This document shows, in pieces, positions 7,197 to 37,836 of a stretch of DNA of 64,000 nt; position 1 is the first letter of the stretch; each line of letters opens with the position of its first letter. The DNA is from a bacterium (GTDB lineage: Bacteria > Patescibacteriota > Minisyncoccia > UBA6257 > GWB1-50-10). The DNA is taken from assembly GCA_021815205.1 (NCBI GenBank), contig JAKAHD010000004.1:4990-68989 (forward strand), given 5' to 3'. The position numbers and the translations under genes are program-made. Under the pieces are notes generated by a model, which saw only the letters and a list, made by a program, of their open reading frames with translations, did no database searches and had not been told where the DNA came from.

Positions 7197-7613
7197 ATGA
7201 AAAAAACAATCGCCTCACTTTTCTTCGCCCCGCTTCTCTTTCTTCTCACCTTTGGCATTTCACACGCGGCGCTCTTTGATATCTGGAAGGGAACCTCGAA
7301 CGGGGGCTGCAACGCGTCGGACTCCGGATGCAACTTATGCGACGCGGTAAAAGTTGTCGTAAATATCGTGAATGACCTTACAACCTTCGCAATCATCGCC
7401 GCGGTCGGCATGACGGTCTATGGCGCGATCGTGCTCATGATCTCCGGCGGCTCCGAGGAGCGGGTAAAGAAAGGAAAGAGCGTCATCTTCACTGCTGTGA
7501 CAGGGCTCGTGATCGTCCTTGCGGGGTGGCTTATTATAAACACCATCCTTCATTTCTTGACCGGCAGAGTTGACTTCCCGTGGGCGAACATACAATGCTA
7601 CAATGTGAAGTAA
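7197..7613 (+). CDS. TrbC/VirB2-like pilin paralog 1 (signal peptide ending AHA, then 2 TM helices)
   Basis: Signal peptide ...FGISHAA, a Cys-containing mature N-terminus, and two hydrophobic helices separated by GGSEERVKKGK. Same architecture as the next three genes. Confidence 0.65.
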   Translation: MKKTIASLFFAPLLFLLTFGISHAALFDIWKGTSNGGCNASDSGCNLCDAVKVVVNIVNDLTTFAIIAAVGMTVYGAIVLMISGGSEERVKKGKSVIFTAVTGLVIVLAGWLIINTILHFLTGRVDFPWANIQCYNVK

Positions 7614-7665
7614 CCAATAGGAATTACTGACTTGTGAGCCCAAGTGATCTTATCGGTCCCATAAT

Positions 7666-7700
7666 GTCATCCTGATCCGCCGATGAGGCGGAGAAGGATC
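7666..7700. repeat. Family A hairpin repeat GTCATCCTGATCCGCC-loop-GGCGGAGAAGGATC, copy 1
   Basis: Near-identical copies at 10524-10558 and 14246-14279 (inverted), plus a head-to-head pair inside rsmA at 22672-22746. Confidence 0.7.
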
Positions 7701-7715
7701 TATAGTAAAATAATC

Positions 7716-8126
7716 ATGTCCACTCTCAAAAAAATTTTATCCGCCTCACTTATCTCCGTTTTTGCTTCTGTGGCGATTGGAGTGTCCCTTGCGCACGCAC
7801 AAACCAGTTGCGATCCAACAATCCAGGCAAACTGTCCAACTCCTCCACCCAACTCTTCTATCGCCCTTTCGAATCCCTTGGGAACCAATAACTCGACTGT
7901 CGAAGATCTCCTCCACTCGATTGTGAACTGGCTCATCACGATCGCGACGCCGATCGCGGTCGGGATGATTTTAATAGGCGCGTTCCAGATGATCTTTGCG
8001 GGCGGGAATCCCGAACGTTTCGCGACGGGCAGAAAAACGATTCTTTACACCGCAATCGGGTATGCTATAATCGTTATAGGTTGGGGGATGGTCTCGATAA
8101 TCCGAGATATTCTGAACGTGCCATAA
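7716..8126 (+). CDS. TrbC/VirB2-like pilin paralog 2
   Basis: Signal peptide ...SLAHAQ, then TSCDPT..., two TM helices and a GGNPERFATGRK linker. Start placed at ATG 7716 because the track ORF start at 7683 lies inside repeat A. Confidence 0.65.
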   Translation: MSTLKKILSASLISVFASVAIGVSLAHAQTSCDPTIQANCPTPPPNSSIALSNPLGTNNSTVEDLLHSIVNWLITIATPIAVGMILIGAFQMIFAGGNPERFATGRKTILYTAIGYAIIVIGWGMVSIIRDILNVP

Positions 8127-8160
8127 CCCCCGAAAGGTCGAGAAGCAAAAAGTTTTTGCA

Positions 8161-8514
8161 ATGAATAAAACATTAAAAGTGGTAACCGCAGTGGCGCTCG
8201 CGGTAAGCATCCTTTCGCCTCTCGCCGCACTCGCGCAAGTACCAAACATCTCCGGAACGCCGCCGATTTCGAGCCTCTCCGGTGTACAAACGAGCCTCTA
8301 TGGAATCGTGAACTGGATTATCGTCATCTTCTGGGTCTTGACGGTACTCTTTCTTGTGTGGGCTGCAGTACTCTATCTCACAGGGGCAGGGAATGAAGAA
8401 AAAATTAAGGAGGCGAAGAATCGAGTCATCTACGCGATTATCGCGGCGGCGATTGCGCTTCTTGCGACTGGATTACAAAGTATTGTGACAAGTATTTTGA
8501 AGGGAAATCAATAA
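8161..8514 (+). CDS. TrbC/VirB2-like pilin paralog 3
   Basis: Signal peptide ...LAALAQ, two TM helices and a GAGNEEKIKEAKNR linker. Confidence 0.65.
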   Translation: MNKTLKVVTAVALAVSILSPLAALAQVPNISGTPPISSLSGVQTSLYGIVNWIIVIFWVLTVLFLVWAAVLYLTGAGNEEKIKEAKNRVIYAIIAAAIALLATGLQSIVTSILKGNQ

Positions 8515-8530
8515 GTTCTTCTTACCTAAA

Positions 8531-8560
8531 ACACGCGGTCCCTGGACCGCGTGTTTTTCG
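8531..8560 (+). terminator. Rho-independent terminator after pilin 3
   Basis: Stem ACACGCGGTCC/GGACCGCGTGT followed by TTTTT. Confidence 0.55.
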
Positions 8561-8592
8561 TCTTTGTCATCGAGTCCGTTTCAAGGCATTAT

Positions 8593-8620
8593 TGGTTTTT
8601 GAAATTGCTTCCAGTATAAT
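8593..8620 (+). promoter_or_regulatory. Candidate sigma70-type promoter for pilin 4 (-35 TTGGTT, 16-nt spacer, -10 TATAAT). The -10 element lies only ~8 nt from the ATG, so the transcript may be leaderless or short-leader.
   Basis: Perfect TATAAT at 8615-8620. ATG at 8628. Confidence 0.35.
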
Positions 8621-8627
8621 AGAACTA

Positions 8628-8960
8628 ATGAATTTATTTTCCTCTCTCGTTTCCACCGCTCACGCGCAAACCACATGCGACATCACCACAACTGCAAACT
8701 GCGTCTCGTCAGGACTCACCTCGCTCTCGCAGGTTGAGGGTTCCTTGAACCGGATTGTAGCATTCCTCTTTAATACGTTCTGGGTAGTCGCGGTTGGCAT
8801 GCTCATCTGGGCCGCGATTCTTTTTCTCACCGCCGGAGATAATAAAGAAACTATTGAAAAGGCGAAGAAGATGATTCTCTATGCGGTAATCGCGGCGGCG
8901 GCGGCGCTTCTTGCAAGCGGCATCTATTCCATTACGTATAATGTTCTCCAGGGGAAGTAA
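8628..8960 (+). CDS. TrbC/VirB2-like pilin paralog 4
   Basis: Signal peptide MNLFSSLVSTAHAQ, then TTCDITT..., two TM helices and a AGDNKETIEKAKK linker. Confidence 0.65.
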   Translation: MNLFSSLVSTAHAQTTCDITTTANCVSSGLTSLSQVEGSLNRIVAFLFNTFWVVAVGMLIWAAILFLTAGDNKETIEKAKKMILYAVIAAAAALLASGIYSITYNVLQGK

Positions 8961-25931: not shown

Positions 25932-27617
25932 ATGAAGCGGCCTCTGAAAAAAATCCTCATTCCCGCGGCGCTCCTTGCGCTCGTGTTCTTTGTGGTGCCG
26001 CATCTCGCGTATGCAATATGGCCGTTTCCTTCGCTGGGGGAGATTGTCTCGGGAGTGTTGCGGTTACTTGCGTATGTTCTAAATTTCATCTTCGGGACTC
26101 TCTTTATGCTCGGCGCGATGCTCGCGAAAGCGATACTCGATCTGAACTTCAATATCCTCACCACTCAGAACGGCCTGGTGCAGGTGGGGTGGAAAATCTC
26201 GCGCGACCTTGCAAATCTCGGCTTTGTGCTCCTCATTATTTTTATCGCGTTCGGCACCATCCTCCGCATCGAGAGTTACGGGGCGAAGAAGCTCCTTCCA
26301 ATGCTCATCGGGGCCGCGATCATCGTGAACTTCAGCTTGGCAATCGGCGGCGTATTCATCAACTTCTCGAACGTCCTCTCAAACTCGTTCATTACGAAGA
26401 TGGGGGATAATTTTACTACGTCCATCGCGGGCGCCTTCGGCGCCCAGCGGCTCCTCTTGCCCCCCGACAATCCGCCGCCGCCCGACCCCGCGGAGCAGGG
26501 AGGAGCGCTCGTCGGTTTTTCGAGTGTGGTTTTGATCGGCCTCGCAAACTTGATTTTTATCTCCGTCTTTACGCTTATTGCGGCGCTCGTGATGTTCCTT
26601 ATCGCCGGCATGCTCCTTATCCGGTACATCGTGCTCTCGTTTCTCCTTATCCTCGCCCCGATCACATGGCTCTTCTGGGCGTTTCCATCCCTGAAGCATC
26701 TCTTCTCCAAGTGGTGGAGCTCGTTTATCGAGTGGGTGTTCTTTGCGCCCGCGATGCTCTTCTTTGTCTACATCGCGGTGCTTTCGGCGCAAAATCTAAA
26801 GGATGTTATCCAGCCCACTGGCTCCGGGTTTAGCGGTATTTTGAGCACTGTGATGTCAACGGGAATGCAGATGGTGGTCCTCGCAGGAGTTCTTGTGGGC
26901 GGCGTGATCGCCGCGCAGAAGATGGGGATCGCGGGGGCGAGCGCGGCGGTAAACGCCGGAAAGAAGGTGGGGAAGAGCACGCAGAAATGGGCGGGGAAAC
27001 AAGCCGCGAAGGGCGCTTCGTACCCGCTTCGCACCGTAACCGGAAGAAAAACGGCGGAAAAACTTCAAACATTCGGCGCAAAGAGCGGGTTTATTGGAAG
27101 AACTCTTTCGGCGCCTCTGCGACAAATTGGTGCCGCGTTAAGTGACGCGCGACTTAAGAGTGAGGACTACACCACGAAGGGGGTAAGAAACACCGTACGC
27201 GGCAGGTCTATTGAGGAGAATGCGAGGCGCCTCCCGCACGCTTCATCTGAAGAGAAGAATGAGATATTAAAATTCTTCCGAGATATGATAGCCCACGGCA
27301 ACACAGCCCAAAAAGAAGCGGCTAATAAAGCGGTTAGAAATGCCCCGGAAAGGGTGCTCGATAAAGAAGCGCGCCTGAAATTTCTCTACGGCGGTGGGGG
27401 AGTGGCTGGCACACGTTATGGGATGCCTAAATTGAAAAATGAGGGGAGATTTTTTCCAAGAATTGAGTTTAGAAATACATTCGTAGAAGAAAATATGCCA
27501 GAGACAAAAGAGGCGGACAAACTTGAACAAGTAAAACGTCTCCTATTTGAGGAGGGGGGTGGGGCCCCTGCTCCAGGCGGTACCGCACCTACCGGCGGAG
27601 GGAGCAACTCTCATTAG
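25932..27617 (+). CDS. VirB6/TrbL-like polytopic membrane protein with a hydrophilic C-terminal tail
   Basis: At least 7 predicted TM helices in the first ~330 aa, followed by a charged tail. Sits beside VirB3-like and VirB4 genes. Assignment is by architecture and context only. Confidence 0.5.
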   Translation: MKRPLKKILIPAALLALVFFVVPHLAYAIWPFPSLGEIVSGVLRLLAYVLNFIFGTLFMLGAMLAKAILDLNFNILTTQNGLVQVGWKISRDLANLGFVLLIIFIAFGTILRIESYGAKKLLPMLIGAAIIVNFSLAIGGVFINFSNVLSNSFITKMGDNFTTSIAGAFGAQRLLLPPDNPPPPDPAEQGGALVGFSSVVLIGLANLIFISVFTLIAALVMFLIAGMLLIRYIVLSFLLILAPITWLFWAFPSLKHLFSKWWSSFIEWVFFAPAMLFFVYIAVLSAQNLKDVIQPTGSGFSGILSTVMSTGMQMVVLAGVLVGGVIAAQKMGIAGASAAVNAGKKVGKSTQKWAGKQAAKGASYPLRTVTGRKTAEKLQTFGAKSGFIGRTLSAPLRQIGAALSDARLKSEDYTTKGVRNTVRGRSIEENARRLPHASSEEKNEILKFFRDMIAHGNTAQKEAANKAVRNAPERVLDKEARLKFLYGGGGVAGTRYGMPKLKNEGRFFPRIEFRNTFVEENMPETKEADKLEQVKRLLFEEGGGAPAPGGTAPTGGGSNSH

Positions 27618-27629
27618 TAATCGCTTATT

Positions 27630-29243
27630 ATGCCAAACGAAGAACGTGAAAACTTATACTGGATTCCCATCCTCGACGATTCCGTCTGGGAGCCGCTTCA
27701 GAAAAAAAACTATGCCGACGCCGAGCTTGCACTCGGAAGCATACTTGAATCCCTTTCCCCCCACGAATGGAATGTGGTGTTTTGGGCGGCGCTTATAGAA
27801 GGGTTCCCGATTGTGCGCGGAGAGCTCACCGAAAAAGAGTGGCGGGAGAACGTGCAGCCGATGCTCGCAAGATTGGTGCTTCAAATCGCCTCCGGAGAAG
27901 CTACCGCCAATATATTCAGCGAGCTGGTCTCATATCCCGACACCGCACAAAAATTCGAAACGCTTCTCATTTACACCTCAACAACCGCGGATGTCGAGAG
28001 TGAAATAAAAATCAAAAAAATAAATCGTCCGCTCTATACCTTCCTTATTGCAAGTCCTGCTCAAGAACTCTTTTCTCCTTTATCGCCATACCGTATCGCA
28101 AGGATTTCTTCGGTGGTGGTGAGCCAGCGCTACACCACAATCCCAGAAAAACTCAAAGATGAACTCTTCTCCTACGCAACCGCCGAAGATATTGCGAGGA
28201 TCGCGGGGGAACAACATCTTTCTCCTGAAAAGACGAATGTGATCGCGACACTTACCGGAAGGGTGCTCCTTGGATTTCTCCACCTTGAGGATATGAAAAA
28301 AGAAATTCAAAAAACACTTGATTTGGATCCGCGGCTTACGGACGCGGTCTATCAGGCGCTCGACAAAAAAATATTTTCTGAATTCAAGGACGAAATCCAC
28401 GAGGTGTATGATCCCGTAATTATCCAAACAAAACCGTCGGAAACCGGGTCCTCGCCGGAACCCGAAGAAAAAACAATCACCTTCGCGGGACTCGAGAAAG
28501 ACGCCCTAGGACCGGAAGAAAACGTGCCGGTGCGTATCTCGAGCGCTCCAATAGAAGAAAAGAAGGAAGACAACCCGTTCGTGCTTCAAGAAGAGAAGCC
28601 GCTTGAGACGGCGGGGGGCACGATGACGGGGAAAAAGTTTTCATTTTCGCTCGGCGGATTCTTCAAACCAAAGAAGAAGGACGAATCCGTCTCCCGGGAA
28701 CCCGTAAAGGCAAAGATAGAGCTTTTTGGCGGAGACAAAGACGAGAAAAGAGTAATTCATTATAGTGAGCTCCGCACGCCGCTCGAGGCGAGAGAAGAGG
28801 ACATCTTCAAGCTAAAAGAAGAACAGCCGATTAGTCCGATAGGACAGATTGGTCCTATCGGTCCAATTGGTCAAATTGGTCCAATTGGTTCTGTTGGTAG
28901 TCCTACCAGTCCTATTAGTCCAATTGATTCCAATTCCGCTTCCGCCCCTTCTCCGCTCACGCCTCCATCTACGAAGAAATCCCCCTGGGCGTTCAAGTGG
29001 TTCGGCTCCCAGGCGCCCGCCCGCGATGAGCAGAAAGCGGTTCCTGAAAATAAGACCGTGGGTGAAACATCGTTCGAGGAAAAACCGGAAGAGAAAAAAG
29101 AAAAAGAACCAGTTAGTCCTATCAGTCAAATTGGTCCAATCAATCCTATAAGTCCAATAGGTTCAATCAGTCCTATCACAGACGAACCCAAGAACCCCAC
29201 CATTGAGGGGAATATTGTGGACTTACGCACGCTCAAAAAATAA
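27630..29243 (+). CDS. Hypothetical soluble protein with Gly-X-Y / PIS tandem repeats near the C-terminus
   Basis: No TM helix. Contains GQIGPIGPIGQIGPIGSVGSP, encoded by 9-bp tandem repeats. Confidence 0.45.
   Translation: MPNEERENLYWIPILDDSVWEPLQKKNYADAELALGSILESLSPHEWNVVFWAALIEGFPIVRGELTEKEWRENVQPMLARLVLQIASGEATANIFSELVSYPDTAQKFETLLIYTSTTADVESEIKIKKINRPLYTFLIASPAQELFSPLSPYRIARISSVVVSQRYTTIPEKLKDELFSYATAEDIARIAGEQHLSPEKTNVIATLTGRVLLGFLHLEDMKKEIQKTLDLDPRLTDAVYQALDKKIFSEFKDEIHEVYDPVIIQTKPSETGSSPEPEEKTITFAGLEKDALGPEENVPVRISSAPIEEKKEDNPFVLQEEKPLETAGGTMTGKKFSFSLGGFFKPKKKDESVSREPVKAKIELFGGDKDEKRVIHYSELRTPLEAREEDIFKLKEEQPISPIGQIGPIGPIGQIGPIGSVGSPTSPISPIDSNSASAPSPLTPPSTKKSPWAFKWFGSQAPARDEQKAVPENKTVGETSFEEKPEEKKEKEPVSPISQIGPINPISPIGSISPITDEPKNPTIEGNIVDLRTLKK
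28829..28935. repeat. 9-bp tandem repeat tract (ATYGGTCMA)n inside the CDS
   Basis: agtccgataggacagattggtcctatcggtccaattggtcaaattggtccaattggttctgttggtagtcct. A second tract lies at 29110-29180. Confidence 0.7.
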
Positions 29244-29734
29244 TGGAATTCCAAGTACCCCAGTTTATAGAACAGAAGCCGAAAATTGTGGGGCCCCTCA
29301 CACTCTCGCAATTTTTTTACCTCGCGGGCGCCGCGATTGTGAGCTTCGTCTCCTTCAGGATATTCACTTTTTTCCTGTGGCTTCTCATCACGCTCATCTT
29401 CGGCGCCGTAGGCGTTACGCTTGCATTCGTGAAGATAAACGGACAGCCATTCCCGAAACTCATCGGCTCCGCGTTCAATTACTTCTGGGGGCCGCGCGTC
29501 TATACCTGGCAGAGAAAAGCGCCCCAAACCACCATCGATCTCCAGAAGATCGAGGAGATTGAGAACCTGCGGGAGCATATGCGCGTACAAGAGCGGCTTA
29601 AAAACATGGCGCTCTCCGTGATGACGGGGAAGTTCTTCCTTAAAAAACCGGAAACGGAAGACCAAAACCGGTATGAGACGGTGGTGTATCTTACGGGAGA
29701 GCGGAAGCAGGCGAAGAGAGTGGATTACTCATAA
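29243..29734 (+). CDS. VirB3/PrgI-like small membrane protein (2 TM)
   Basis: IEQKPKIVGPLTLSQFFYLAGAAIVSF followed by a second TM helix. Lies immediately upstream of VirB4. Its start overlaps the previous stop (TAATG). Confidence 0.45.
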   Translation: MEFQVPQFIEQKPKIVGPLTLSQFFYLAGAAIVSFVSFRIFTFFLWLLITLIFGAVGVTLAFVKINGQPFPKLIGSAFNYFWGPRVYTWQRKAPQTTIDLQKIEEIENLREHMRVQERLKNMALSVMTGKFFLKKPETEDQNRYETVVYLTGERKQAKRVDYS

Positions 29735-29973
29735 TGAGAATGGAAAGAACTCGGAACTTTACACGACTAAAAAGTGTGCGCTCCGGGGCAACAAGCCCCA
29801 AGTCTTATTCCGACGAGCGGGGAGTGAAATAGGGGCATGCTCACATATTTCAGCCGAACGATGTCGGAAGAAGGACGCAGTCTTTCACCCACTTTTTAGT
29901 CGTTAAAGTTCCTCGACGTTATTTTTGAGATTATTCATAATTCGTATAAAATAGAGGTAGAGGTACTACATAC

Positions 29974-30615
29974 ATGGCGGAACCGACGCAAGCATCGCAA
30001 CAATTTGTAAAGATAAAAGAGATTCGAGACGGCATTCTCTATATGAAGGGTGGCGGCCTGAGGCAGGTGCTTATGGTGAGCGGCATCAACTTTGAGCTGA
30101 AATCTGAGGGCGAGCAGGCGACGATCTTGGGCACGTTCCAGAAGTTCTTGAACTCGCTCGATTTCGGCGTCCAGTTCTTCATCCATTCGCGGAAGACGAA
30201 TATTGAAAAATATCTCGCAAACATGGAGGAGTGTAAGAAGGGGGAGACGAATGAGCTTCTGCGCGTTCAGATCGAGGAGTACATCAACTTCATTCGCACG
30301 TTCGTCGAGGAGAACGCCATCATCAACAAAAGTTTCTTTATCGTAGTGCCCTACGATCCCGTCTCGCTTACCGCGGGGAAGGGCGGCTTTTTGGACGGGC
30401 TGTTCGGCAAGAAATCAAGCATATCGAAAGAACAGCAGAAGCAGGCAACGGACGCGGAGAACGTCGCCCAACTCAAGGAGCGCGCGACCCAGGTCATCGA
30501 GGGGCTCGCGGTTATGGATCTCCGCACGGTGCCTTTGGAGGACGAGGATCTCGTCGAGTTGTTCTACAACCTCTACAACCCGAAGCTTGTCGATAAAAAA
30601 GGAGTTACCGCATGA
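29974..30615 (+). CDS. virB4: VirB4/TrbE-family ATPase, N-terminal domain, encoded as a separate 213-aa gene
   Basis: Directly precedes the Walker-A-containing VirB4 part and overlaps it by ATGA. The combined length of 796 aa equals a typical VirB4. Confidence 0.55.
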   Translation: MAEPTQASQQFVKIKEIRDGILYMKGGGLRQVLMVSGINFELKSEGEQATILGTFQKFLNSLDFGVQFFIHSRKTNIEKYLANMEECKKGETNELLRVQIEEYINFIRTFVEENAIINKSFFIVVPYDPVSLTAGKGGFLDGLFGKKSSISKEQQKQATDAENVAQLKERATQVIEGLAVMDLRTVPLEDEDLVELFYNLYNPKLVDKKGVTA

Positions 30616-32363
30616 AAATAAATATTCCCAAAGCATACAAACCCGGAAGCGAAGACCTCCCGAACATCATCGCGCCCGCGGGGCTCGAAGTGAACGCGAA
30701 CTACCTGAAGCTCGGCGATTATTACGCGAAGACCTTTTTCGTATTCACGTATCCGCGTTATCTTTCCGCGGGGTGGTTCTCGGATATTATCAACTTACCC
30801 GCCATGATGGATATCTCGATTGTGATGTACCCGATGGATACCGCGCTCGCGCTCCGAAATCTCCGGAAGAAGGTGGCACAGATCGAGGCGGAGATCGGCG
30901 AGAAACAAGAGAAGGGGCTCGTGCGCGACCCCATGCTCGAGACCGCCTATGAGGATGTGGAAACGCTCCGCGATGCGCTCCAGCAGGCGCGTGAGCGTCT
31001 CTTCGAGGTAGGGGCGTATATCACGATCTATGCCGCAACCCTGAACGACCTCTCAGACCTCGAAAATAAGATTACGAACGCCTTGGAGAGCAAGCTGGTA
31101 TACATAAAACCCTCACTCTTTCGGCAAAGCGAGGGGTTGAACTCCGTTTTCCCGATTGCCTCGGATGAGCTTGCGGTCCGCACGCCCTTGAATACCGGCC
31201 CCGCCTCATCACTCTTCCCTTTTATCTCGCCCGACCTCACCTCCGAGAAAGGCATTCTCTATGGGGTGAATATGCACAATAACAGCTTGATTATCTTCGA
31301 CCGTTACTCGCTCGAAAACGCGAATATGACGATTTTTGCGAAGTCGGGTTCCGGGAAATCATACGCGGCAAAGCTCCAGATCCTCCGCTCGATGATGCTT
31401 GGCACGAACGTGATTGTGATTGACCCCGAGAACGAGTACGAGAACCTCGCAAATGCGATCGGCGGGAGTTACTTCAAAATTTCGCTTACTTCGCCGAGCC
31501 ACATCAACCCGTTCGATATTCCGATTATTCCCGAGGGAGACGAGCCGGCGGATGTATTTAAGTCGCACGTCCTCAATCTCACGGGGCTCATAAAACTCAT
31601 GCTCGGCGAGATTACTCCGGAAGAGGAATCGCTCCTTGACCGGGCAATCACCGAGACCTACGCCTCGCGCGATATCAACGCGGAGAACTTCGGCACCATG
31701 AAGGAGTTCAACCCGCCGCTCCTCGAGGACTTCCAGACGATTCTTATGAACACCGAAGGGGGGCGCGGGATCGGCCAGCGTCTTGATAAGTTCACCCACG
31801 GATCGTATTCCGGCTTCACAAACGCCCCGACGAATGTTGATATCAAGAACCGCCTCATCGTTTTCTCGATCCGCGACCTTGAGGAAGAGCTTCGCCCGAT
31901 CGCGATGTATATCATTCTGAATTTTGTGTGGAACATCATCCGCTCGGAACTGCGGCAACGAATGCTTGTGATCGATGAGGCGTGGCTTATGATGAAACAT
32001 AAGGACAGTGCCTCGTTCCTCTTCGGCCTCGTGAAGCGCGCGCGGAAATATTATCTCGGCGTCGTCACGATCACGCAGGATGTGGACGACTTCCTGAAAT
32101 CGGAGTATGGGAAGCCGATTATTACAAACTCCTCCCTCCAGTTGCTTCTGAAACAATCGCCAAGCTCGATTGATATTCTTACCAAAGCGTTCAGCCTCAC
32201 GGAGGGTGAAGCGGCGTTTCTCTTGCAGGCGGGGATAGGAGAAGGACTCTTCTTCGCGGGGCTGAAGCATGTTGCAATCAAGATCATTCCTTCGTACACG
32301 GAAGATCAGATTATTACCACAAACCCAGAACAAATCATGGAGATTAAGGGGCTCCAGCGATAA
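30612..32363 (+). CDS. virB4: VirB4/TrbE-family conjugal-transfer ATPase, C-terminal ATPase domain
   Basis: Walker A FAKSGSGKSYAAK, Walker B MLVIDEAWLMM and C-terminal VirB4 motifs (GVVTITQDVDD). 583 aa. Confidence 0.75.
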   Translation: MKINIPKAYKPGSEDLPNIIAPAGLEVNANYLKLGDYYAKTFFVFTYPRYLSAGWFSDIINLPAMMDISIVMYPMDTALALRNLRKKVAQIEAEIGEKQEKGLVRDPMLETAYEDVETLRDALQQARERLFEVGAYITIYAATLNDLSDLENKITNALESKLVYIKPSLFRQSEGLNSVFPIASDELAVRTPLNTGPASSLFPFISPDLTSEKGILYGVNMHNNSLIIFDRYSLENANMTIFAKSGSGKSYAAKLQILRSMMLGTNVIVIDPENEYENLANAIGGSYFKISLTSPSHINPFDIPIIPEGDEPADVFKSHVLNLTGLIKLMLGEITPEEESLLDRAITETYASRDINAENFGTMKEFNPPLLEDFQTILMNTEGGRGIGQRLDKFTHGSYSGFTNAPTNVDIKNRLIVFSIRDLEEELRPIAMYIILNFVWNIIRSELRQRMLVIDEAWLMMKHKDSASFLFGLVKRARKYYLGVVTITQDVDDFLKSEYGKPIITNSSLQLLLKQSPSSIDILTKAFSLTEGEAAFLLQAGIGEGLFFAGLKHVAIKIIPSYTEDQIITTNPEQIMEIKGLQR

Positions 32364-32366
32364 ACT

Positions 32367-32807
32367 ATGGCGGAACTCTCAAGGGCCGCCTCGGGGGCGG
32401 CATCAAAAACAAAAGGAAGCACGGGAAAGAGCGCCCCTGCACGTTCCGACGAGCCCATATCCGAAGTTACAAACAAGTTCGAGCTCTCCGAGATCGTGGT
32501 GGGAACAATCTACACTTTTACAACCGACGGTCTCTGCGCACTGCTTGATATCTTCACATTAGAATCATTTGCGGTAGCGAGTTGGGTGATACGAAACGGC
32601 GTCGCGGGCACCATCTGGATGTGGTTTTACGCGAAAAAAGATCCTCATGTAAAAAAAGCAGGACGACTCATTTTCAAAGGATTTGCGAACGCCACGCCGC
32701 TCTTTATTAACACGATTATGTTTCTCATTGAGGTATATATTCACAACCACCCCGAGAAGTTCGCGGCACTCGAGAAGGTCGCGGGAGCTACGGGCGGTAA
32801 GGCATAA
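32367..32807 (+). CDS. Hypothetical small membrane protein
   Basis: Two hydrophobic segments. Operon-internal position. Confidence 0.4.
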   Translation: MAELSRAASGAASKTKGSTGKSAPARSDEPISEVTNKFELSEIVVGTIYTFTTDGLCALLDIFTLESFAVASWVIRNGVAGTIWMWFYAKKDPHVKKAGRLIFKGFANATPLFINTIMFLIEVYIHNHPEKFAALEKVAGATGGKA

Positions 32808-32823
32808 GGTATAATATAAGAAA

Positions 32824-33522
32824 ATGGATTTTAGAAAATCAATCGGACTTATTGGATTAATGGGACTTATTGGTCTTATTGGCGTGTCTCACTCTTTTGC
32901 GCAAACCGCGCCTTCCGCCGCATCAAACGTCCAAGTTGTCATCACCTGGCAGGCGAATAATTACTTTCCGGCGGGATTCGAGGGAAAGTCGCTTCCCGCG
33001 CCTTATGCGCAGGTGGTCGCCTCCGTCGAACTTCTCGAAGACAATAAACTTGCCGATCTTTCTCAAGCCACAGTGAACTGGTTTGTGGACGACAAGTTCC
33101 AAAAATCGGGGGTGGGACTTAAAACATTTTCCTTCTATACCCAGCAGGAGGATTCCGGCTACGTGTCCGTGCGCGCGGTAATTGAGCTCCAGGGCGGGGG
33201 GGGCGCACGCGGCTCGCTTCAGATTCCCATAGTGGCGCCTACTTTGGTACTCTCCTACGCCGCTCCTTCAAACTCCGTAGCCGCAAACTCAAGCGTAACG
33301 CTCGCCGCAATCCCGTTCTCTTTTAACGTCTCATCCCCAAGCGATCTCACGTTCTTCTGGACCATCAATGGGGCTCAATCGAATGTTTCAGGAAACACCG
33401 TGAAGCTCCAACTCGGCGCCCCGACGCCCCTTGACCGGCTGCTCCAGATTTCGGTGAGCGCGCAGAATAACAAGAACCCGCTCGAGATCGGAAAAACAGC
33501 CGCAGCATTTCCCATACAATAA
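32824..33522 (+). CDS. Hypothetical secreted protein
   Basis: Signal peptide IGLIGLMGLIGLIGVSHSFAQ, encoded by the same 9-bp repeat in inverse orientation. Confidence 0.45.
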   Translation: MDFRKSIGLIGLMGLIGLIGVSHSFAQTAPSAASNVQVVITWQANNYFPAGFEGKSLPAPYAQVVASVELLEDNKLADLSQATVNWFVDDKFQKSGVGLKTFSFYTQQEDSGYVSVRAVIELQGGGGARGSLQIPIVAPTLVLSYAAPSNSVAANSSVTLAAIPFSFNVSSPSDLTFFWTINGAQSNVSGNTVKLQLGAPTPLDRLLQISVSAQNNKNPLEIGKTAAAFPIQ

Positions 33523-33544
33523 CAGAACATTAAAGAAAGATGTT

Positions 33545-35113
33545 ATGTTAAAAACAAAACTGAAAAATCTCACGCTAATCGTTTTCGTGTTCCTCGCGTT
33601 TTTTGCGGTTACCGCGATCAATACCGCCTACGCACAAAAGACCTTAAACCCGCCGCAACCGATCGTGAATGTGAATTTTCCGTGCCCGAGCCCCGGTTGC
33701 CAACCAATAACTTCCGACACCCAAGTTACCACCTATATTCAAACTTTCTACCAGTTCAGTTTATGGATCGGTGGCGCTTTGGCGCTTGGGATGATCGTCG
33801 CGGGAGGTATCGTGCGGATCCTATCCGCGGGAAGCCCTGACAAGATTCGCGAGGCGAACGATATGATCACCTCGGCGATCTTCGGTCTCCTCCTCCTTTT
33901 CGGCGCCTATCTTGTCCTCAACACTATAAATCCCCAGCTCACACTCTTGAAACTCCCTGCCGCGGGAGAAGCATCAACCGAAAAAGCGCAACTCACGGAA
34001 AAACTCTCCGACACAAACTGCGTCGCGCCGGGCGTCGAGGACTTCGCAAACATCCCTGTGTGGAACGGGGTAAAACAAATAAGCGTGTTGCATTGCATTT
34101 ACAGGCAAGAAGTTGGACACAATCCAGTTTCTAATGGTTTTGGGTTTGTGGCCGGCGATTACTATGCCGAAGATTTTGCGATTCCGAATGGTTCAATGGT
34201 GTGGAAATATCCGTATTTTACTGGAACGAGCCCCACCGCTACCGCGAAGTGTTTGGTGTACGCCTACAAGGAACCGGGGGTTGGCAAAACGGTGCAGATG
34301 ACTCCGCTCAATTCGAGTTTGAAGTTATGCACTCCGCTATATCAGAATTTGGGGGGGCCTGTATGTAAGGAGTGGCAGTTCTCCGCGAGAGAATCAAAAA
34401 CAAAGGATTTCAAAAACCCCGATCAGTTTGTTACCCGCACCTTCACCGATAAGACATTTCAAAGGGATCCTTTGAGTCCTCCAACCGTTCCTTCTTTCGC
34501 AAGGGACTACTGGGGAGATAATCCTATTTATTACTGCATAAACCCGGATGGGAGTGAAAATAAGAACACCTACTGCGCAAACGAAAACGCCGCTCCTTTC
34601 TGGACGTGCACGGTAGCGGAAAATCCGCCGTCAATACAGAACAAGGATACACCCATAGTGAGTCCGTGCGCCGACTGCGAAGACCTCCCCCCCAACTTTT
34701 CTGTGAACGGCAATCCGTGCGACAAGACGATTGATAACACCACCCTTAACTCCCACAAAGGGTACTGCAGACTTAATAAAAAGTTTACAGCCGATCTCGA
34801 TAAATTCAATAAGCTGATGCAAGCGGCAAAAAACTCTTCTGGGGGAACGGGAATTTCCTGGCAAATCACCGAGGCGTGGCCGAATACGGTGTATCACTCG
34901 TCCCCCTGCCACTACGACGGGCAGTGCGCCGACATCGCGCTCACCGGAAACGTAACGTGTGCGGACGTACAGAAAACAATGGATATTTTGAAATCGAGTG
35001 CGGGGGGCGGATTTTTTAGATCCCTCAACGAGTACGCTCGGCCGCCGCTTGTGTGTAATGCAGAGGGAAACTATAAAACCACCACAGGCAACAACATCCA
35101 TGTGGAGTGGTGA
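33545..35113 (+). CDS. Pilin-like (TrbC/VirB2-type) N-terminal module fused to a ~390-aa Cys-rich extracellular domain. Putative tip or adhesin pilin.
   Basis: Signal peptide ...NTAYAQ, a Cys/Pro-rich stretch, and two TM helices flanking AGSPDKIREAND (same layout as pilins 1-4). The large domain that follows has more than 20 Cys. Confidence 0.5.
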   Translation: MLKTKLKNLTLIVFVFLAFFAVTAINTAYAQKTLNPPQPIVNVNFPCPSPGCQPITSDTQVTTYIQTFYQFSLWIGGALALGMIVAGGIVRILSAGSPDKIREANDMITSAIFGLLLLFGAYLVLNTINPQLTLLKLPAAGEASTEKAQLTEKLSDTNCVAPGVEDFANIPVWNGVKQISVLHCIYRQEVGHNPVSNGFGFVAGDYYAEDFAIPNGSMVWKYPYFTGTSPTATAKCLVYAYKEPGVGKTVQMTPLNSSLKLCTPLYQNLGGPVCKEWQFSARESKTKDFKNPDQFVTRTFTDKTFQRDPLSPPTVPSFARDYWGDNPIYYCINPDGSENKNTYCANENAAPFWTCTVAENPPSIQNKDTPIVSPCADCEDLPPNFSVNGNPCDKTIDNTTLNSHKGYCRLNKKFTADLDKFNKLMQAAKNSSGGTGISWQITEAWPNTVYHSSPCHYDGQCADIALTGNVTCADVQKTMDILKSSAGGGFFRSLNEYARPPLVCNAEGNYKTTTGNNIHVEW

Positions 35114-36348
35114 GAACACCAATGAAACTCGACTATAAAAAAATAATTATCACGCTGGTGCTCGTCGCGGTCTTCGGGCTCGTCGTGTACTTTGTTTGGC
35201 AGGGGATTGCGGGCCCCGCTTCGCCGGGGGTCCCCGCGGTTTCTTCTTCAACTCCTTCCGCGCCAAACCTTCCCGGAGGATCGCTTCCTGCCTCGTCGAC
35301 TTCTTCTCCCCAAACCTTGGGAGGCGGCACCATCACGTTCGGCACAAGCTCGCCCGCGATTATAAGGGTTTCCAATAATCCCGCTGAAGCATACTGGATC
35401 GACGGACAAACGCAAGGAATTTTTTATCTTAACCAAGACGGCCAGGTGTTTCTTGTAAATAAAAACAAGGATGGAAAGGACACCCAGATTACCCAGCAAA
35501 AAATGGGCGCCTTGAATACGATAGCAATCGGCCCCGGCTCACAGCGCGTACTCGCTTCCTTTGGGGATCCGCGCGCGCCGCAGTGGGGCGTGTTCGATGA
35601 TGTGGATCAGGTCTGGCGCCCGCTCCCCTCGACGGTCTTAAGCGCTGCATGGGGAGGGGATAACAACACCTTCTATGGCGTCGTGCAGAACGGTTCCGTG
35701 CCCGCGCTCGCCTCAATTGACATGAGCCGCGGGAACGCCGTTACCAAGATCCTTATTAAAGATTTCCGGTTCCAGGATGTGCAACTCTCTTTTTTGCCCC
35801 CCTCAACACTTTTGCTCACCGAACGAGCGTCCGCACACTATCCCTCGCGGGTGTGGAAAATAGACACTGCAAGTTTGGCGGTGCATCTTCTTATGGGCGG
35901 GCAAAATGGTCTGGTGCTTACGCTAAGCGACGATAAGCGAATTATGTTTTCCTTTATAGGAAATGCATTCCAAATTCTTGACCCCTACACCTTAAGTTCT
36001 GTGGCGCCCGTGCCGTTCCTCACGCTTCCCCCCAAATGTACCTTTTCTGGCGTGATTGCGTACTGCTTCGTGCCGGATTCACAGAATTTTAAGAACGCAA
36101 CACTCCCCGATGATTATCTCACCTTAAAACTATTTACCTCGGACACACTCTATGAGGTAAACGCCGCGAATGGGGGAATGGCTTTTTCAAATATTCCTAA
36201 GTTGCTTAATAATGGCGTGTTTGATGCGATAAATCCAATATTCAGCAATGGATTCCTCTACTTCAGAAACCGTCTCGATAATTATGTGTATGCCTTGAAC
36301 CTTACCTCGGATCAGTTTTCGCAAAACGGACAGCGTGTGGGGGACTAG
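35107..36348 (+). CDS. Hypothetical membrane-anchored extracytoplasmic protein (413 aa), last gene of the operon
   Basis: N-terminal TM helix and a Ser/Pro-rich linker. Overlaps the previous gene by 7 nt. Confidence 0.45.
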   Translation: MVRTPMKLDYKKIIITLVLVAVFGLVVYFVWQGIAGPASPGVPAVSSSTPSAPNLPGGSLPASSTSSPQTLGGGTITFGTSSPAIIRVSNNPAEAYWIDGQTQGIFYLNQDGQVFLVNKNKDGKDTQITQQKMGALNTIAIGPGSQRVLASFGDPRAPQWGVFDDVDQVWRPLPSTVLSAAWGGDNNTFYGVVQNGSVPALASIDMSRGNAVTKILIKDFRFQDVQLSFLPPSTLLLTERASAHYPSRVWKIDTASLAVHLLMGGQNGLVLTLSDDKRIMFSFIGNAFQILDPYTLSSVAPVPFLTLPPKCTFSGVIAYCFVPDSQNFKNATLPDDYLTLKLFTSDTLYEVNAANGGMAFSNIPKLLNNGVFDAINPIFSNGFLYFRNRLDNYVYALNLTSDQFSQNGQRVGD

Positions 36349-36381
36349 GGTTTTTGCCCTGCGCCGCTATTTTCTCATTCG

Positions 36382-36414
36382 GGCGCTCCGGGGCGCTAGC
36401 CCAAGTCTTACCCT
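36382..36414. repeat. Family B repeat (inverted orientation)
   Basis: GCGCTCCGGGGCGCTAGCCCAAGTCTTACCCTC. Confidence 0.65.
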
Positions 36415-36467
36415 CACTCGAAAAAGCGGTGCAGGGCCTTGTAGTGGGGAATGCGACGCGAGGATGA

Positions 36468-36896
36468 TTAAATGTTGATGTGTTTAATAATGATGTGGCG
36501 GTCCTTGCCTTCACCGTCGCTTTCCGTCTTAAGATCGGGGTTGGTTGCTATTTCCACATGCACCAAACGGCGTTCGTAGGCATTCATTGGGGGAAGCGCC
36601 ACATCCGTTTTTGTGAGAATCGCCTTCTTCGCGCCCGCCTTTGCGAGCTCAATAATCAGTCGTTCACGTTCTCTGCGATAATAATTTACGTCCACCACAA
36701 ACGAGGGGAGGTTCTCTCTGCGAAGCATGAGGTTTATGAGGTGCTCGAACGCGGGGAGTGCGGTAGGGAGTTGGGAGCGAAAGAGCTCGTCGTCCACCAC
36801 CACAAGCACCTTCCGGTGCTCCTCGTCAACCGAGACCTGATGCTCTGGAAATCCCATAAGCTCCAGAAGTTTTTGTATGTGTGCGGTTATGTTCAT
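36468..36896 (-). CDS. jag: Jag/KhpB-like RNA-binding protein (R3H domain)
   Basis: Position downstream of yidC and a C-terminal R3H-like sequence. Confidence 0.6.
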   Translation of the reverse strand: MNITAHIQKLLELMGFPEHQVSVDEEHRKVLVVVDDELFRSQLPTALPAFEHLINLMLRRENLPSFVVDVNYYRRERERLIIELAKAGAKKAILTKTDVALPPMNAYERRLVHVEIATNPDLKTESDGEGKDRHIIIKHINI

Positions 36897-37582: not shown

Positions 37583-37836
37583 TTTTTATGAGGGTGATCC
37601 ATTGCGGCGCCAAGCTCGCGCTGTAATTCCTGGAATGTGATTGCGTCGATCCCTTTTCGCGCGATCACCACACAGTCGTGCGAGGCGCCCACAAGAAGCG
37701 GTACCACAATAGCGCGAATTCTTCTTTTAATCAAGTTTCTCCTCACTGCCTTTTTCACGACCGTTTTTGGAATCACACACACCACCCTCCGGGAGGAGGG
37801 TGTGTGAGGAATTAACTTGAGGGTGAGATGCGGCAC
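37579..37836 (-). CDS. rnpA: Ribonuclease P protein component
   Basis: 85-aa basic protein, RNR-like motif KKAVRRNLIKRRIRA. Sits between rpmH and yidC. Confidence 0.8.
   Translation of the reverse strand: MPHLTLKLIPHTPSSRRVVCVIPKTVVKKAVRRNLIKRRIRAIVVPLLVGASHDCVVIARKGIDAITFQELQRELGAAMDHPHKK

What the first reader, a model, noticed from the sequence alone, without database searches (positions are those of the whole stretch)
33545..35113. Pilin module fused to a ~390-aa cysteine-rich extracellular domain (candidate tip adhesin)
The first ~140 aa repeat the pilin layout of the 7.2-9.0 kb paralogs (signal peptide, Cys/Pro-rich segment, TM, AGSPDKIREAND linker, TM). The ORF then continues into a large domain with more than 20 cysteines (CxxC, C-x-C pairs) and no TM helix. 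A pilin anchor carrying a disulfide-rich globular head is what a pilus-tip adhesin or receptor-binding subunit would look like. It sits inside the T4SS-like operon.
Basis: inference. Interest (0 to 1): 0.55.

Follow-up and report, generated by a model that had tools for sequence, protein, structure and literature searches.

The report
Conjugation-type pilin fused to wall peptidase
This gene, from an ultrasmall Patescibacteria (CPR) bacterium, joins a secretion-system pilin to an unknown disulfide-rich domain and a Hedgehog-like zinc peptidase of the kind that cuts bacterial cell wall. It is therefore probably the missing wall-cutting enzyme of that secretion machine rather than a simple adhesin.

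Summary
The ORF is real: 33545-35113, + strand, 522 aa. It is identical in three independent assemblies, so it is not a join artefact.

It has three modules:
- Residues 1-135 are a VirB2-like pilin (Pfam PF18895, E 4e-9).
- Residues 159-357 are a confidently modelled beta-rich, Cys-rich domain. It has no Pfam, PDB or viral fold match.
- Residues 405-522 are a Hedgehog/DD-peptidase (LAS) zinc-peptidase-like domain. A family profile hits the Sonic hedgehog N-domain at E 3.5e-8, and the Foldseek top hits are Hedgehog N-domains. H456-x6-D463, H519, E496 and H451 are all conserved.

The gene sits in a monoderm-type T4SS operon (VirB6, VirB3/PrgI, TraC-like, VirB4) next to dnaA. No other wall-hydrolase domain was detected in that operon.

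At the same position in related genomes the pilin and middle modules persist. The C-terminal module changes: Hedgehog-like, VanY (M15B), an unassigned HxH domain, or none.

Among 154 cluster representatives, 107 combine the pilin module with this peptidase domain.

My reading is a pilin-anchored or pilus-displayed peptidoglycan peptidase that does the VirB1 job. Whether it cuts its own wall or the host's wall is open.

The cysteine count is 16, not more than 20.

Verdict: a new variant of a known kind. Interest 0.6.

The parts
33545..33634 (+). Signal peptide, residues 1-30, with inferred cleavage after A-Y-A30
   Evidence: Hydrophobic segment at residues 4-31. A28, A30 and Q31 are invariant in orthologues. 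The cleavage site itself is inferred.
33635..33754 (+). N-terminal exposed pilin segment, residues 31-70, containing C47 and C52
   Evidence: The IVNV[ND]FPC motif is invariant in orthologues. The layout is shared with the stand-alone pilins.
33755..33934 (+). VirB2-like pilin hairpin: helix 71-97, charged loop 98-105 (SPDKIREA, within the SAGSPDKIREAND motif) and helix 106-130
   Evidence: PF18895 T4SS_pilin matches residues 58-127 at E 4.2e-9, 36.8 bits against a cut-off of 26.6. Hydropathy supports the two helices. AF2 models helices 61-93 and 98-128 with pLDDT 88-95. There are weak Foldseek matches to conjugative pilins 8dfu and 8exh. This module is 80-89% identical in orthologues.
33935..34018 (+). 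Linker, residues 131-158. The stand-alone pilins end within a few to about 20 residues of its start.
   Evidence: Alignment with the four array pilins. pLDDT is below 50 for residues 137-155.
34019..34615 (+). Middle domain, residues 159-357. It is beta-rich with 8 Cys. Core motifs are YY..GS.VW.YPYF...A.CLIYAY...L.LC.P.Q...C..W, then FNYPD..PPP, ending W.C[TS]. Its function is unknown; it may be a binding module.
   Evidence: Its limits come from the 28 pilin+middle representatives; most of the shorter ones (about 340 aa) end at or just after the W.C[TS] motif. AF2 pLDDT is mostly 80-96. There is no Pfam hit, no PDB sequence hit, and no Foldseek hit in PDB or BFVD.
34616..34756 (+). Low-confidence Cys-containing linker, residues 358-404, including C375-x-x-C378 and C392
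   Evidence: pLDDT is below 50 for residues 366-406. The cysteines are conserved in orthologues.
34757..35110 (+). Hedgehog/DD-peptidase (LAS) zinc-peptidase-like domain, residues 405-522. Putative Zn ligands are H456 (34910-34912), D463 (34931-34933) and H519 (35099-35101). The putative catalytic residue is E496 (35030-35032). H451 (34895-34897) is also conserved.
   Evidence: A profile of 48 family members hits Sonic/Indian/Desert hedgehog N-domains at E 3.5e-8 to 1e-5, with H456/D463/E496 aligned to Shh H141/D148/E177. The single sequence gives E 0.26. Twelve of 48 members hit PF01085 HH_signal, the best at 1.1e-5. The three top Foldseek hits are Hedgehog N-domains (prob 1.0), and ChiX L-Ala-D-Glu endopeptidase is fifth. 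Invariant residues are listed.
25932..32363 (+). Upstream T4SS genes of the same operon: VirB6/TrbL-like 25932-27617, a 537-aa protein, PrgI/VirB3-like 29243-29734, TraC-like 29974-30615 and VirB4 ATPase 30612-32363
   Evidence: Pfam hits. The order is syntenic in L004 and L007-L012.
32367..33522 (+). Two small conserved operon genes of unknown function (146 aa and 232 aa), lying between virB4 and the fusion gene
   Evidence: Syntenic in all related loci. No family hit.
35107..36348 (+). Downstream gene, overlapping the fusion gene's end. It encodes 413 aa with an N-terminal membrane segment and is a conserved partner of unknown function.
   Evidence: Its start overlaps the stop of the fusion gene. 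It is present downstream in all related loci, whatever C-terminal module the fusion carries. No Pfam or PDB hit.
7197..8960 (+). Array of four stand-alone VirB2-like pilins, the likely major or variant pilus subunits with which the fusion would co-assemble
   Evidence: PF18895 hits. A local pilin HMM finds only these four plus the fusion in the window.

Best explanation
The gene encodes a three-module subunit of the Patescibacteria type IV secretion system (T4SS).

How it is built:
- A Sec signal peptide and a VirB2-like pilin hairpin insert it in the membrane, with the C-terminus outside.
- The hairpin holds a disulfide-stabilised head outside the cell.
- The head is a beta-rich domain of unknown fold, possibly a substrate- or surface-binding module, followed by a Hedgehog/DD-peptidase (LAS) zinc-metallopeptidase domain.

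How I think it works:
- The peptidase cuts peptidoglycan peptide stems or cross-links at the site where the T4SS and its pilus cross the wall.
- It therefore does the job that VirB1, PrgK or TraG hydrolases do in other T4SSs.
- Because the anchor is a true and highly conserved pilin module, the enzyme is probably recruited by the VirB4-driven pilin-handling machinery. It may be built into the pilus, at the tip or sparsely among the small pilins. That would carry the enzyme outward, possibly as far as the host's wall.

Shown: the domain identities, conserved catalytic residues, conserved fusion, operon membership, and swapping of the module among peptidase types.

Inferred: enzymatic activity, peptidoglycan as substrate, incorporation into a pilus, and which wall is cut.
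For: Pilin module:
- PF18895 scores above its cut-off.
- The layout matches the array pilins.
- It is 80-89% identical among orthologues whose heads are 31-56% identical. That is more conservation than a passive anchor needs.

Peptidase module:
- The family profile matches Shh N-domain structures at E 3.5e-8, aligning H-x6-D and the E177-equivalent.
- H451, G459, D463 and E496 are invariant across 48 diverse members. E443 and H456 are at least 90% conserved.
- The terminal His is kept in all full-length orthologues.
- The top Foldseek hits of the AF2 model are Hedgehog N-domains at prob 1.0, followed by ChiX endopeptidase.
- Twelve of 48 members hit PF01085 and one hits Peptidase_M15_3.
- JGI names two relatives 'D-alanyl-D-alanine dipeptidase'.

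Module swapping:
- At the same operon position, L011 carries pilin + middle + PF02557 VanY (31.9 bits against a cut-off of 25).
- L010 carries a different module with H...D and E...HxH motifs, and L012 carries none.
- Independent recruitment of two LAS peptidase types argues that wall-peptide hydrolysis is the selected function.

Context:
- The gene is two genes downstream of virB4, with overlapping or short-gap gene junctions and no promoter or terminator signal above chance.
- No other hydrolase domain was detected in the operon.

Precedent:
- In S. epibionticum, the gene directly downstream of virB4 (SEML1_0007) has a C-terminal Hedgehog/DD-peptidase domain and is essential (PMC10633639 Tables S1/S2).
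- Most Patescibacteria with VirB2-like pilins lack a recognisable VirB1 (PMC12102498).

Breadth:
- Of 154 cluster representatives (50% identity), 95 are pilin-peptidase and 12 are pilin-middle-peptidase.
Against: - The window protein alone does not reach any Pfam peptidase cut-off: HH_signal scores 12.4 bits against 22.1.
- Its terminal motif is N-x-H, not the canonical H-x-H, so the first His is missing. It also lacks the Asp that four of the other five full-length relatives (P0002-P0005) have at position -3. Activity could therefore be reduced or altered.
- Hedgehog itself shows that this fold can serve as a ligand rather than an enzyme.
- No activity, metal content or localisation data exist.
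- A 42-kDa head on every subunit would crowd a VirB2-type filament, so incorporation into a pilus is speculative.
Confidence: 0.55

Rival explanations
1. It is a host-directed weapon or drill. The fusion is polymerised into the T4SS pilus and carries the peptidase to the host bacterium's wall. It opens the host's peptidoglycan at the contact site, for effector or nutrient traffic or for lysis. It does not remodel the producer's own wall.
For: - The anchor is a genuine, highly conserved pilin rather than a plain membrane helix.
- The head evolves fast (31-56% identity) while VirB4 stays at 93%. The catalytic module is also swapped between related genomes. This is the pattern expected for host-interface proteins.
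- The Patescibacteria T4SS is essential for epibiotic growth and lacks relaxase and coupling protein (PMC10633639).
- Secreted CPR wall hydrolases have been proposed to attack host walls (PMC8080830).
Against: - No pilus has been shown for these systems.
- No immunity gene specific to the peptidase is evident. The downstream 413-aa gene is present even where the peptidase module is absent.
- Membrane-anchored T4SS hydrolases of monoderms act on the producer's own wall (literature cited in PMC12102498).
Confidence: 0.25
2. It is a pilus-tip or surface adhesin whose head binds a host surface ligand. The Hedgehog-like domain acts as a binding module (a pseudo-enzyme), as in animal Hedgehog signalling.
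For: - The head is extracellular, disulfide-rich and fast-evolving.
- The middle domain exists on pilins without any peptidase, in 28 representatives, so it has a function of its own.
- The canonical H-x-H is degraded to N-x-H in this protein.
Against: - The Zn-ligand triad, the E177-equivalent Glu and H451 are all retained here, and H451, D463 and E496 are invariant across the family.
- Replacement by VanY at the same locus makes sense for an enzyme, not for a specific ligand-binding surface.
- No lectin or adhesin fold or family was detected.
Confidence: 0.13
3. It is a housekeeping autolysin for growth or division. It merely uses a pilin-like hairpin as a membrane anchor and has no functional tie to the T4SS.
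For: LAS peptidases such as VanY, LdcB and MepA commonly act in general wall turnover (established knowledge). L011's module weakly resembles LdcB.
Against: - The position between virB4 and the 413-aa gene is strictly conserved across at least eight loci from different MAGs.
- Junctions with the flanking operon genes are overlapping or only a short gap.
- 103 of 120 relatives carry the T4SS pilin domain.
- The hairpin is much more conserved than the head.
Confidence: 0.05
4. It is an artefact: two genes joined by mis-assembly or a frameshift.
For: None found.
Against: - The nucleotide sequence is identical in three independent assemblies.
- The same architecture occurs in orthologues at 45-47% identity and in more than 100 clusters.
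Confidence: 0.01

Closest known systems
Membrane-anchored peptidoglycan hydrolases of monoderm conjugative T4SSs: PrgK (pCF10), TraG (pIP501), TcpG and CwlT, the VirB1 functional class
   Same: - Encoded in a VirB4-centred operon of the monoderm (MPF-FATA-like) type.
- N-terminal membrane anchor with extracytoplasmic wall-hydrolase domain(s).
- Thought to open the wall locally for the secretion channel (PMC12102498).
   Different: - Those enzymes use lytic transglycosylase/lysozyme and CHAP/NlpC-P60 domains and a simple membrane helix.
- Here the catalytic domain is a LAS/Hedgehog-type zinc peptidase and the anchor is a VirB2-like pilin.
- No SLT, lysozyme or CHAP domain is detectable.
SEML1_0007 of Southlakia epibionticum ML1 (Saccharibacteria)
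   Same: - It has a C-terminal ECOD 'Hedgehog/DD-peptidase' domain at residues 951-1105 of 1113.
- It is encoded immediately downstream of virB4 in an origin-proximal T4SS locus.
- It is essential in Tn-seq.
   Different: - It is twice as long.
- No pilin domain was reported for it, though its sequence could not be examined here.
- It is accompanied by a separate lysozyme/CHAP protein, SEML1_0006, and no counterpart of that was detected in this operon.
Hedgehog N-terminal domain and bacterial Hedgehog-like DD-peptidases (bacHh, M15A; LAS arrangement)
   Same: - The H-x6-D motif, the C-terminal His ligand and the E177-equivalent Glu are present.
- The fold is an alpha/beta sandwich.
- As in bacHh proteins, the domain is C-terminal, follows membrane segments and faces outward (PMC6027127).
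   Different: - The two-calcium site of Shh and bacHh is not conserved: only E443 aligns with Shh E127, and WPNTVYH replaces WDEDGHH.
- A 15-25-residue Cys-containing insert separates the Glu from the terminal His.
- The first His of H-x-H is Asn in this protein.
- Identity to Shh is only about 14-16%.
VirB2/TraA/TrbC conjugative pilins and the Patescibacteria pilin arrays (PF18895)
   Same: - Signal peptide, two hydrophobic helices and a short charged loop.
- Linkage to virB4.
- Co-occurrence with an array of small divergent pilins (PMC12102498).
   Different: Known VirB2-type pilins are about 70-150 aa with no appended globular domain. This one carries a 390-aa two-domain head. From my own knowledge, only short peptide tags have been shown to be tolerated at the F-pilin C-terminus.
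Modular type IV pilins, such as Streptococcus sanguinis PilB and PilC. This is an analogy recalled from my own knowledge and was not tested here.
   Same: The design principle is the same: a pilin module grafted to a functional globular module, so that the filament displays it.
   Different: These belong to an unrelated filament system (type IV pili, class III signal peptide). Their appended modules are adhesive (vWA, lectin), not peptidases.

Membership tests
T4SS_pilin (PF18895) / VirB2-like conjugative pilin | Sequence match to the family model above its curated cut-off | tested here: met
   36.8 bits against a cut-off of 26.6, E 4.2e-9, residues 58-127 covering model positions 2-70 of 71.
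T4SS_pilin (PF18895) / VirB2-like conjugative pilin | Signal peptide followed by two hydrophobic helices joined by a short charged loop | tested here: met
   Hydropathy segments at residues 4-31, 71-97 and 106-130. AF2 models helices 61-93 and 98-128. The alignment with the array pilins agrees.
T4SS_pilin (PF18895) / VirB2-like conjugative pilin | Genetic linkage to a VirB4 ATPase and other T4SS genes | tested here: met
   The gene is two genes downstream of virB4, and this arrangement is syntenic in L004 and L007-L012.
T4SS_pilin (PF18895) / VirB2-like conjugative pilin | Polymerises into an extracellular pilus | not testable with these tools
   This needs microscopy or biochemistry. No pilus has yet been visualised for Patescibacteria T4SSs, according to the papers read.
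Hedgehog/DD-peptidase (LAS) zinc-peptidase superfamily | H-x(6)-D zinc-binding motif | tested here: met
   H456-YDGQCA-D463. D463 is invariant and H456 at least 90% conserved in 48 members. They align to Shh H141 and D148.
Hedgehog/DD-peptidase (LAS) zinc-peptidase superfamily | C-terminal H-x-H motif, whose second His is the third zinc ligand | tested here: inconclusive
   The window protein has N517-I-H519, so the ligand His is present and the first His is absent. Across 124 domains the counts are H-x-H 60, N-x-H 25, S-x-H 12 and H-x-S 23.
Hedgehog/DD-peptidase (LAS) zinc-peptidase superfamily | Catalytic glutamate equivalent to Shh E177 | tested here: met
   E496, in the NEY motif, is invariant in the family and aligns to Shh E177.
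Hedgehog/DD-peptidase (LAS) zinc-peptidase superfamily | The fold: an alpha/beta sandwich resembling Hedgehog-N or M15 structures | tested here: met
   AF2 pLDDT is about 80-94 for residues 410-522. The top three Foldseek PDB hits are Hedgehog N-domains at prob 1.00, about 115 aligned columns and rmsd 3.2-3.9 Å. ChiX (5opz) ranks fifth. E-values are modest, at 0.01-0.02.
Hedgehog/DD-peptidase (LAS) zinc-peptidase superfamily | Significant sequence match to a curated family model (PF01085 HH_signal or a Peptidase_M15 family) | tested here: not met
   - The window domain scores 12.4 bits against a cut-off of 22.1 for HH_signal, and hits no M15 family.
- The feature is met only at family-profile level: E 3.5e-8 to Shh chains, and 12 of 48 relatives hit PF01085.
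- I therefore file it at superfamily level, not as a member of Pfam HH_signal.
Hedgehog/DD-peptidase (LAS) zinc-peptidase superfamily | Zinc-dependent peptidase activity on peptidoglycan peptides | not testable with these tools
   This requires a biochemical assay.
VirB1-type T4SS hydrolases (SLT/lysozyme, CHAP) | A lytic transglycosylase/lysozyme-like or CHAP/NlpC-P60 catalytic domain | tested here: not met
   No such Pfam domain is found in this protein or elsewhere in the operon. One distant pilin-fusion relative does carry PF18896 SLT_3 and one carries a 3D domain. The protein works like VirB1 but is not a member of that family.
VanY / Peptidase M15B | Match to PF02557 | tested here: not met
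   There is no hit for the window protein. The syntenic L011 protein does match, at 31.9 bits against a cut-off of 25.
Pilus-tip adhesin (VirB5/TraC class) or lectin-type adhesin | Sequence or fold similarity to VirB5-like or lectin/adhesin domains | tested here: not met

The most novel reading that the evidence does not exclude
Patescibacteria build a conjugation-type (VirB2) pilus that is itself an enzymatic tool. Modular pilins display interchangeable peptidoglycan peptidases (Hedgehog-like, VanY-like and others) together with a novel binding domain. The pilus carries them to the host cell and locally dissolves the host wall, creating the conduit through which the epibiont feeds. The rapid divergence and module swapping of the head would then record an arms race with host wall chemistry.
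Probability: 0.2. Interest if true: 0.85.

Novelty: new variant of a known kind. Interest (0 to 1): 0.6.

Why it matters
- The T4SS of Patescibacteria is essential for their epibiotic life, but how it works is unknown. Recent surveys noted that most of these genomes have VirB2-like pilins and no recognisable VirB1 wall hydrolase (PMC12102498).
- A widespread pilin-peptidase fusion gives a concrete candidate for that missing activity. It is found in 107 of the 154 cluster representatives examined.
- It also offers a new design principle for conjugation-type pilins: a modular VirB2 pilin carrying an enzyme.
- The hypothesis is directly testable in the cultivable Saccharibacteria, where a related Hedgehog/DD-peptidase protein next to virB4 is already known to be essential.
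- It adds a large bacterial branch of Hedgehog-like domains, which bears on the bacterial origin of the animal Hedgehog N-domain.
- It defines a confidently modelled domain (residues 159-357) with no detectable relatives.

Tried and rejected
- Single-sequence searches of the head gave nothing significant: Pfam, NCBIfam, PHROGs and PDB phmmer. Only the family profile exposed the Hedgehog relationship.
- The middle domain has no PDB sequence hit with a 30-sequence profile. Its Pfam hits are scattered noise. Foldseek against PDB and BFVD gave only hits with prob <= 0.10 and large rmsd for nearly all.
- The trypsin-like names at the top are rejected as chance (prob 0.02, rmsd above 12 Å).
- Two profile searches of the 5.8-billion-protein index returned few hits (2 and 16), because of its word filter, and added little.
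- The 'type B' C-terminal module of L010 could not be tied to the LAS fold. hhalign gave prob 14.5% over 14 columns, and there was no PDB hit. It is left unassigned.
- I considered that the downstream 413-aa gene is a peptidase immunity protein. I rejected this because the gene is present in all three distant loci examined (L010-L012), including L012, whose fusion gene carries no peptidase module.
- I considered inactivation of the enzyme because of N516 and N517. I judged this unproven, because E496, H451 and the ligand triad are intact and N-x-H recurs in 25 of 124 family members.
- The promoter and terminator scan around the gene found nothing above shuffled expectation.
- The neighbouring genes (146, 232 and 413 aa) have no PDB, Pfam or PHROG relatives.
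- Strain-level hypervariability could not be tested, because all recovered copies are identical.
Full report
**1. Observation**

The ORF at 33545-35113 (+ strand) exists and encodes 522 aa.
- Hydropathy gives three hydrophobic stretches: residues 4-31, 71-97 and 106-130. There is none afterwards.
- The protein has 18 cysteines, 16 of them after residue 140.
- The enrichment is nonetheless real. The C-terminal 382 aa are 4.2% Cys against 0.48% in 49 other ORFs of the window (binomial P about 1e-10).
- Fourteen of the 16 cysteines are conserved in orthologues.
- The N-terminal ~135 aa share the layout of the four small proteins at 7197-8960, with 18-21% identity. This module and three of those four score above the gathering cut-off of Pfam PF18895 T4SS_pilin; the pilin at 7197-7613 falls just below it, at 25.0 bits against 26.6.
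- The exact DNA is found in an ENA assembly and in two Logan assemblies from different runs, with zero mismatches. The fusion is therefore not an assembly artefact.

**2. Anatomy: three modules, not a pilin plus one head**

A full HMMER scan of 1.84 billion cluster representatives with residues 141-522 gave 169 hits at E <= 1e-3.
- Local domain mapping of the 154 retrieved sequences splits the query into two independently occurring modules.
- The architectures are: pilin-Cterm 95, pilin-middle 28, pilin-middle-Cterm 12, Cterm only 17 (short, probably fragments) and middle only 2.
- 103 of 120 hits carry PF18895.
- Most of the shorter pilin-middle proteins (about 340 aa) end at or just after a conserved W.C[TS] motif. 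That motif corresponds to W353-C355 here and sets the middle domain at about residues 159-357.

AlphaFold2, with a 120-sequence alignment, gives a mean pLDDT of 76.
- The pilin hairpin scores 88-95.
- The beta-rich middle domain scores mostly 80-96.
- There is a disordered stretch at residues 366-406.
- The C-terminal alpha/beta domain scores about 80-94.

**3. The C-terminal domain (405-522) is a Hedgehog/DD-peptidase-type zinc peptidase domain**
- Alone, it gives only E 0.26 to Sonic hedgehog N-domain chains and 12.4 bits to PF01085, below the cut-off.
- A profile of 48 diverse family members hits 25 Hedgehog N-domain chain sequences in the PDB at E 3.5e-8 to 1.9e-3, and no other family at E below 2.
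- That alignment places H456 and D463 on Shh H141 and D148 (zinc ligands), E496 on Shh E177 (general base) and H451 on Shh H135. The residue roles are taken from PMC6027127.
- H451, G459, D463 and E496 are invariant in the 48 sequences. E443, P446 and H456 are at least 90% conserved.
- Twelve of 48 members hit PF01085 (best 1.1e-5) and one hits Peptidase_M15_3.
- Foldseek of the model against the PDB ranks three Hedgehog N-domains first (prob 1.00, about 115 columns, rmsd 3.2-3.9 Å). The L-Ala-D-Glu endopeptidase ChiX ranks fifth.
- One caveat: the canonical C-terminal H-x-H is N517-x-H519 here. Across 124 domains the forms are H-x-H 60, N-x-H 25, S-x-H 12 and H-x-S 23. The window protein thus belongs to a recurrent variant that keeps the ligand His.

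**4. The middle domain (159-357)**
- It has a strongly conserved core (W220, Y222, Y224 and C236 are invariant) and a confident beta-rich model.
- It has no relatives in Pfam, in PDB sequences, or in PDB and BFVD structures by Foldseek.
- More sensitive fold libraries were unavailable.
- It occurs on pilins without any peptidase, so it has its own role. Binding of a wall or surface ligand is a reasonable but untested guess.

**5. Context**

The gene lies in a + strand operon in this order:
1. VirB6/TrbL-like
2. a 537-aa protein
3. PrgI/VirB3-like
4. TraC-like
5. VirB4 ATPase
6. a 146-aa protein
7. a 232-aa protein
8. this gene
9. a 413-aa protein whose start overlaps this gene's stop

- The operon abuts jag/yidC/rnpA and dnaA/dnaN. 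This is the origin-proximal, monoderm-type (MPF-FATA-like) T4SS described for Patescibacteria (PMC12102498).
- Relatives come from MAGs labelled Patescibacteria group, Minisyncoccia, Saccharibacteria or just 'bacterium'.
- No other wall-hydrolase domain is detectable in the operon, even at E <= 1.
- No promoter or terminator signal exceeds shuffled expectation around the gene.
- A local HMM finds only five pilin modules in the window (this gene plus the array) and a single copy of the peptidase domain.

**6. Comparative test**

In four loci whose VirB4 is 93% identical to the window's, the fusion is kept but is only 45-47% identical.

| Module | Identity to window |
|---|---|
| Pilin hairpin | 80-89% |
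| Middle core | 40-56% |
| Rest of middle/linker | 31-40% |
| Peptidase | 39-55% |

In three more distant loci, with VirB4 at 79-81%, the gene at the same position keeps pilin + middle but changes its C-terminal module:
- L011, a Saccharibacteria MAG, carries PF02557 VanY (31.9 bits against a cut-off of 25).
- L010 carries an unassigned module with conserved TGGTE.GH..HG....VD and E...HLHVQF motifs. This could not be linked to LAS by hhalign.
- L012 has no third module.
- The 413-aa downstream gene is present in all three, so it is not an immunity protein for one particular peptidase.

Two different LAS-clan wall peptidases recruited to the same pilin-middle scaffold is the strongest indirect evidence that wall-peptide hydrolysis is the selected function.

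**7. Mechanism proposed**
- Shown: the module identities, intact catalytic residues, conserved fusion, operon linkage and module swapping.
- Inferred, step 1: Sec export and signal-peptide cleavage after A30. The hairpin inserts with its loop (SAGSPDKIREAND) facing the cytoplasm and both ends outside, as for VirB2-type pilins (established knowledge). The head is thus placed in the oxidising exterior, where up to eight disulfides form.
- Inferred, step 2: the zinc peptidase cleaves peptidoglycan stem peptides or cross-links where the T4SS and pilus traverse the wall. It thereby stands in for VirB1, which most Patescibacteria with VirB2-like pilins lack (PMC12102498).
- Inferred, step 3: the unusually conserved hairpin suggests specific handling by the pilin-extraction machinery, and possibly incorporation into the pilus.
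- Whether the substrate is the producer's wall or the host's is unresolved. I give about 0.55 to the anchored or displayed T4SS wall peptidase in general. The specifically host-directed version I score separately, as a rival, at 0.25.

**8. Comparison with known systems**
- It works like PrgK, TraG, TcpG or CwlT but shares no catalytic domain with them.
- Its nearest functional relative is probably SEML1_0007 of S. epibionticum. That is an essential 1113-aa protein encoded just downstream of virB4, with a C-terminal Hedgehog/DD-peptidase domain (PMC10633639 supplementary tables). No pilin module is reported for it.
- At superfamily level the domain belongs with Hedgehog-N, bacHh and the M15 peptidases (PMC6027127). 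It lacks the Shh calcium site and has a Cys-containing insert.
- I found no paper describing a VirB2-type pilin fused to a peptidase: full-text searches and reading of the Patescibacteria T4SS papers found turned up none. The recent papers treat these pilins as small subunits in arrays.

**9. Verdict**
- The 'tip adhesin' reading is only partly supported.
- The feature is best described as a new variant of known kinds: a T4SS wall hydrolase delivered as a modular VirB2-like pilin. It is widespread in Patescibacteria and has an additional orphan domain.
- Interest is 0.6. The main weakness is that activity, substrate and pilus incorporation are all inferred.

Noticed in passing
window 7197-10491: The array of four stand-alone PF18895 pilins (7197-8960) is followed directly by a PMT-family protein O-mannosyltransferase-like gene at 9025-10491 (PF02366, PF16192). 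This might mean the pilins are glycosylated.
   Followed up: partly
window 22357-40925: The whole T4SS operon sits between an RsmA-like methyltransferase gene and the jag/yidC/rnpA-dnaA-dnaN origin region. The same arrangement is seen in L004. It matches the origin-proximal placement reported for Patescibacteria T4SSs.
   Followed up: partly
L004, L007-L009 compared with window 23522-36348: Divergence is very uneven within one operon. VirB4 is 93% identical, TraC-like 72%, PrgI 70%, VirB6 62% and the 413-aa protein 62%. The pilin fusion is 45-47%, and the 288-, 541- and 537-aa proteins are 33-43%. The exposed components evolve far faster than the motor.
   Followed up: partly
L010:2378-3601; also P0025, P0032, P0069, P0093, P0121, P0123, P0140: A second, unassigned C-terminal module rides on pilin+middle proteins. 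Its invariant motifs are TGGTE.GH..HG....VDL and E...H.H..F, and it has six conserved Cys. It looks like a metallohydrolase but could not be tied to any family (hhalign to the Hedgehog-like profile gave prob 14.5%; no PDB hit).
   Followed up: partly
P0044, P0067, P0075, P0102 (C-terminal 150 aa): A third C-terminal module occurs on pilin+middle proteins, with motifs N.TRG...SCHYGG...A.DF...H[VL]H[VI][TS]V.GC. It was not analysed further.
   Followed up: no
L011:5983-7683: In a Saccharibacteria MAG, the syntenic gene is a 566-aa pilin + middle + VanY (PF02557) fusion. This is a clean example of catalytic-module replacement at a fixed operon position.
   Followed up: yes
window 35107-36348: A 413-aa protein with an N-terminal membrane segment has a start that overlaps the stop of the fusion gene. 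It is conserved downstream in every related locus (42-62% identity). It has no Pfam or PDB match and only a chance-level PHROG match.
   Followed up: partly
window 52081-52500: A small ORF of 139 aa has 3.6% cysteine, the only other strongly Cys-rich ORF in the window.
   Followed up: no
L010-L012 compared with window 30612-32363: VirB4 is still 79-81% identical between MAGs labelled as different classes (Minisyncoccia, Saccharibacteria, 'Patescibacteria group'). Either the labels are loose, or this T4SS is unusually conserved or exchanged between lineages.
   Followed up: no
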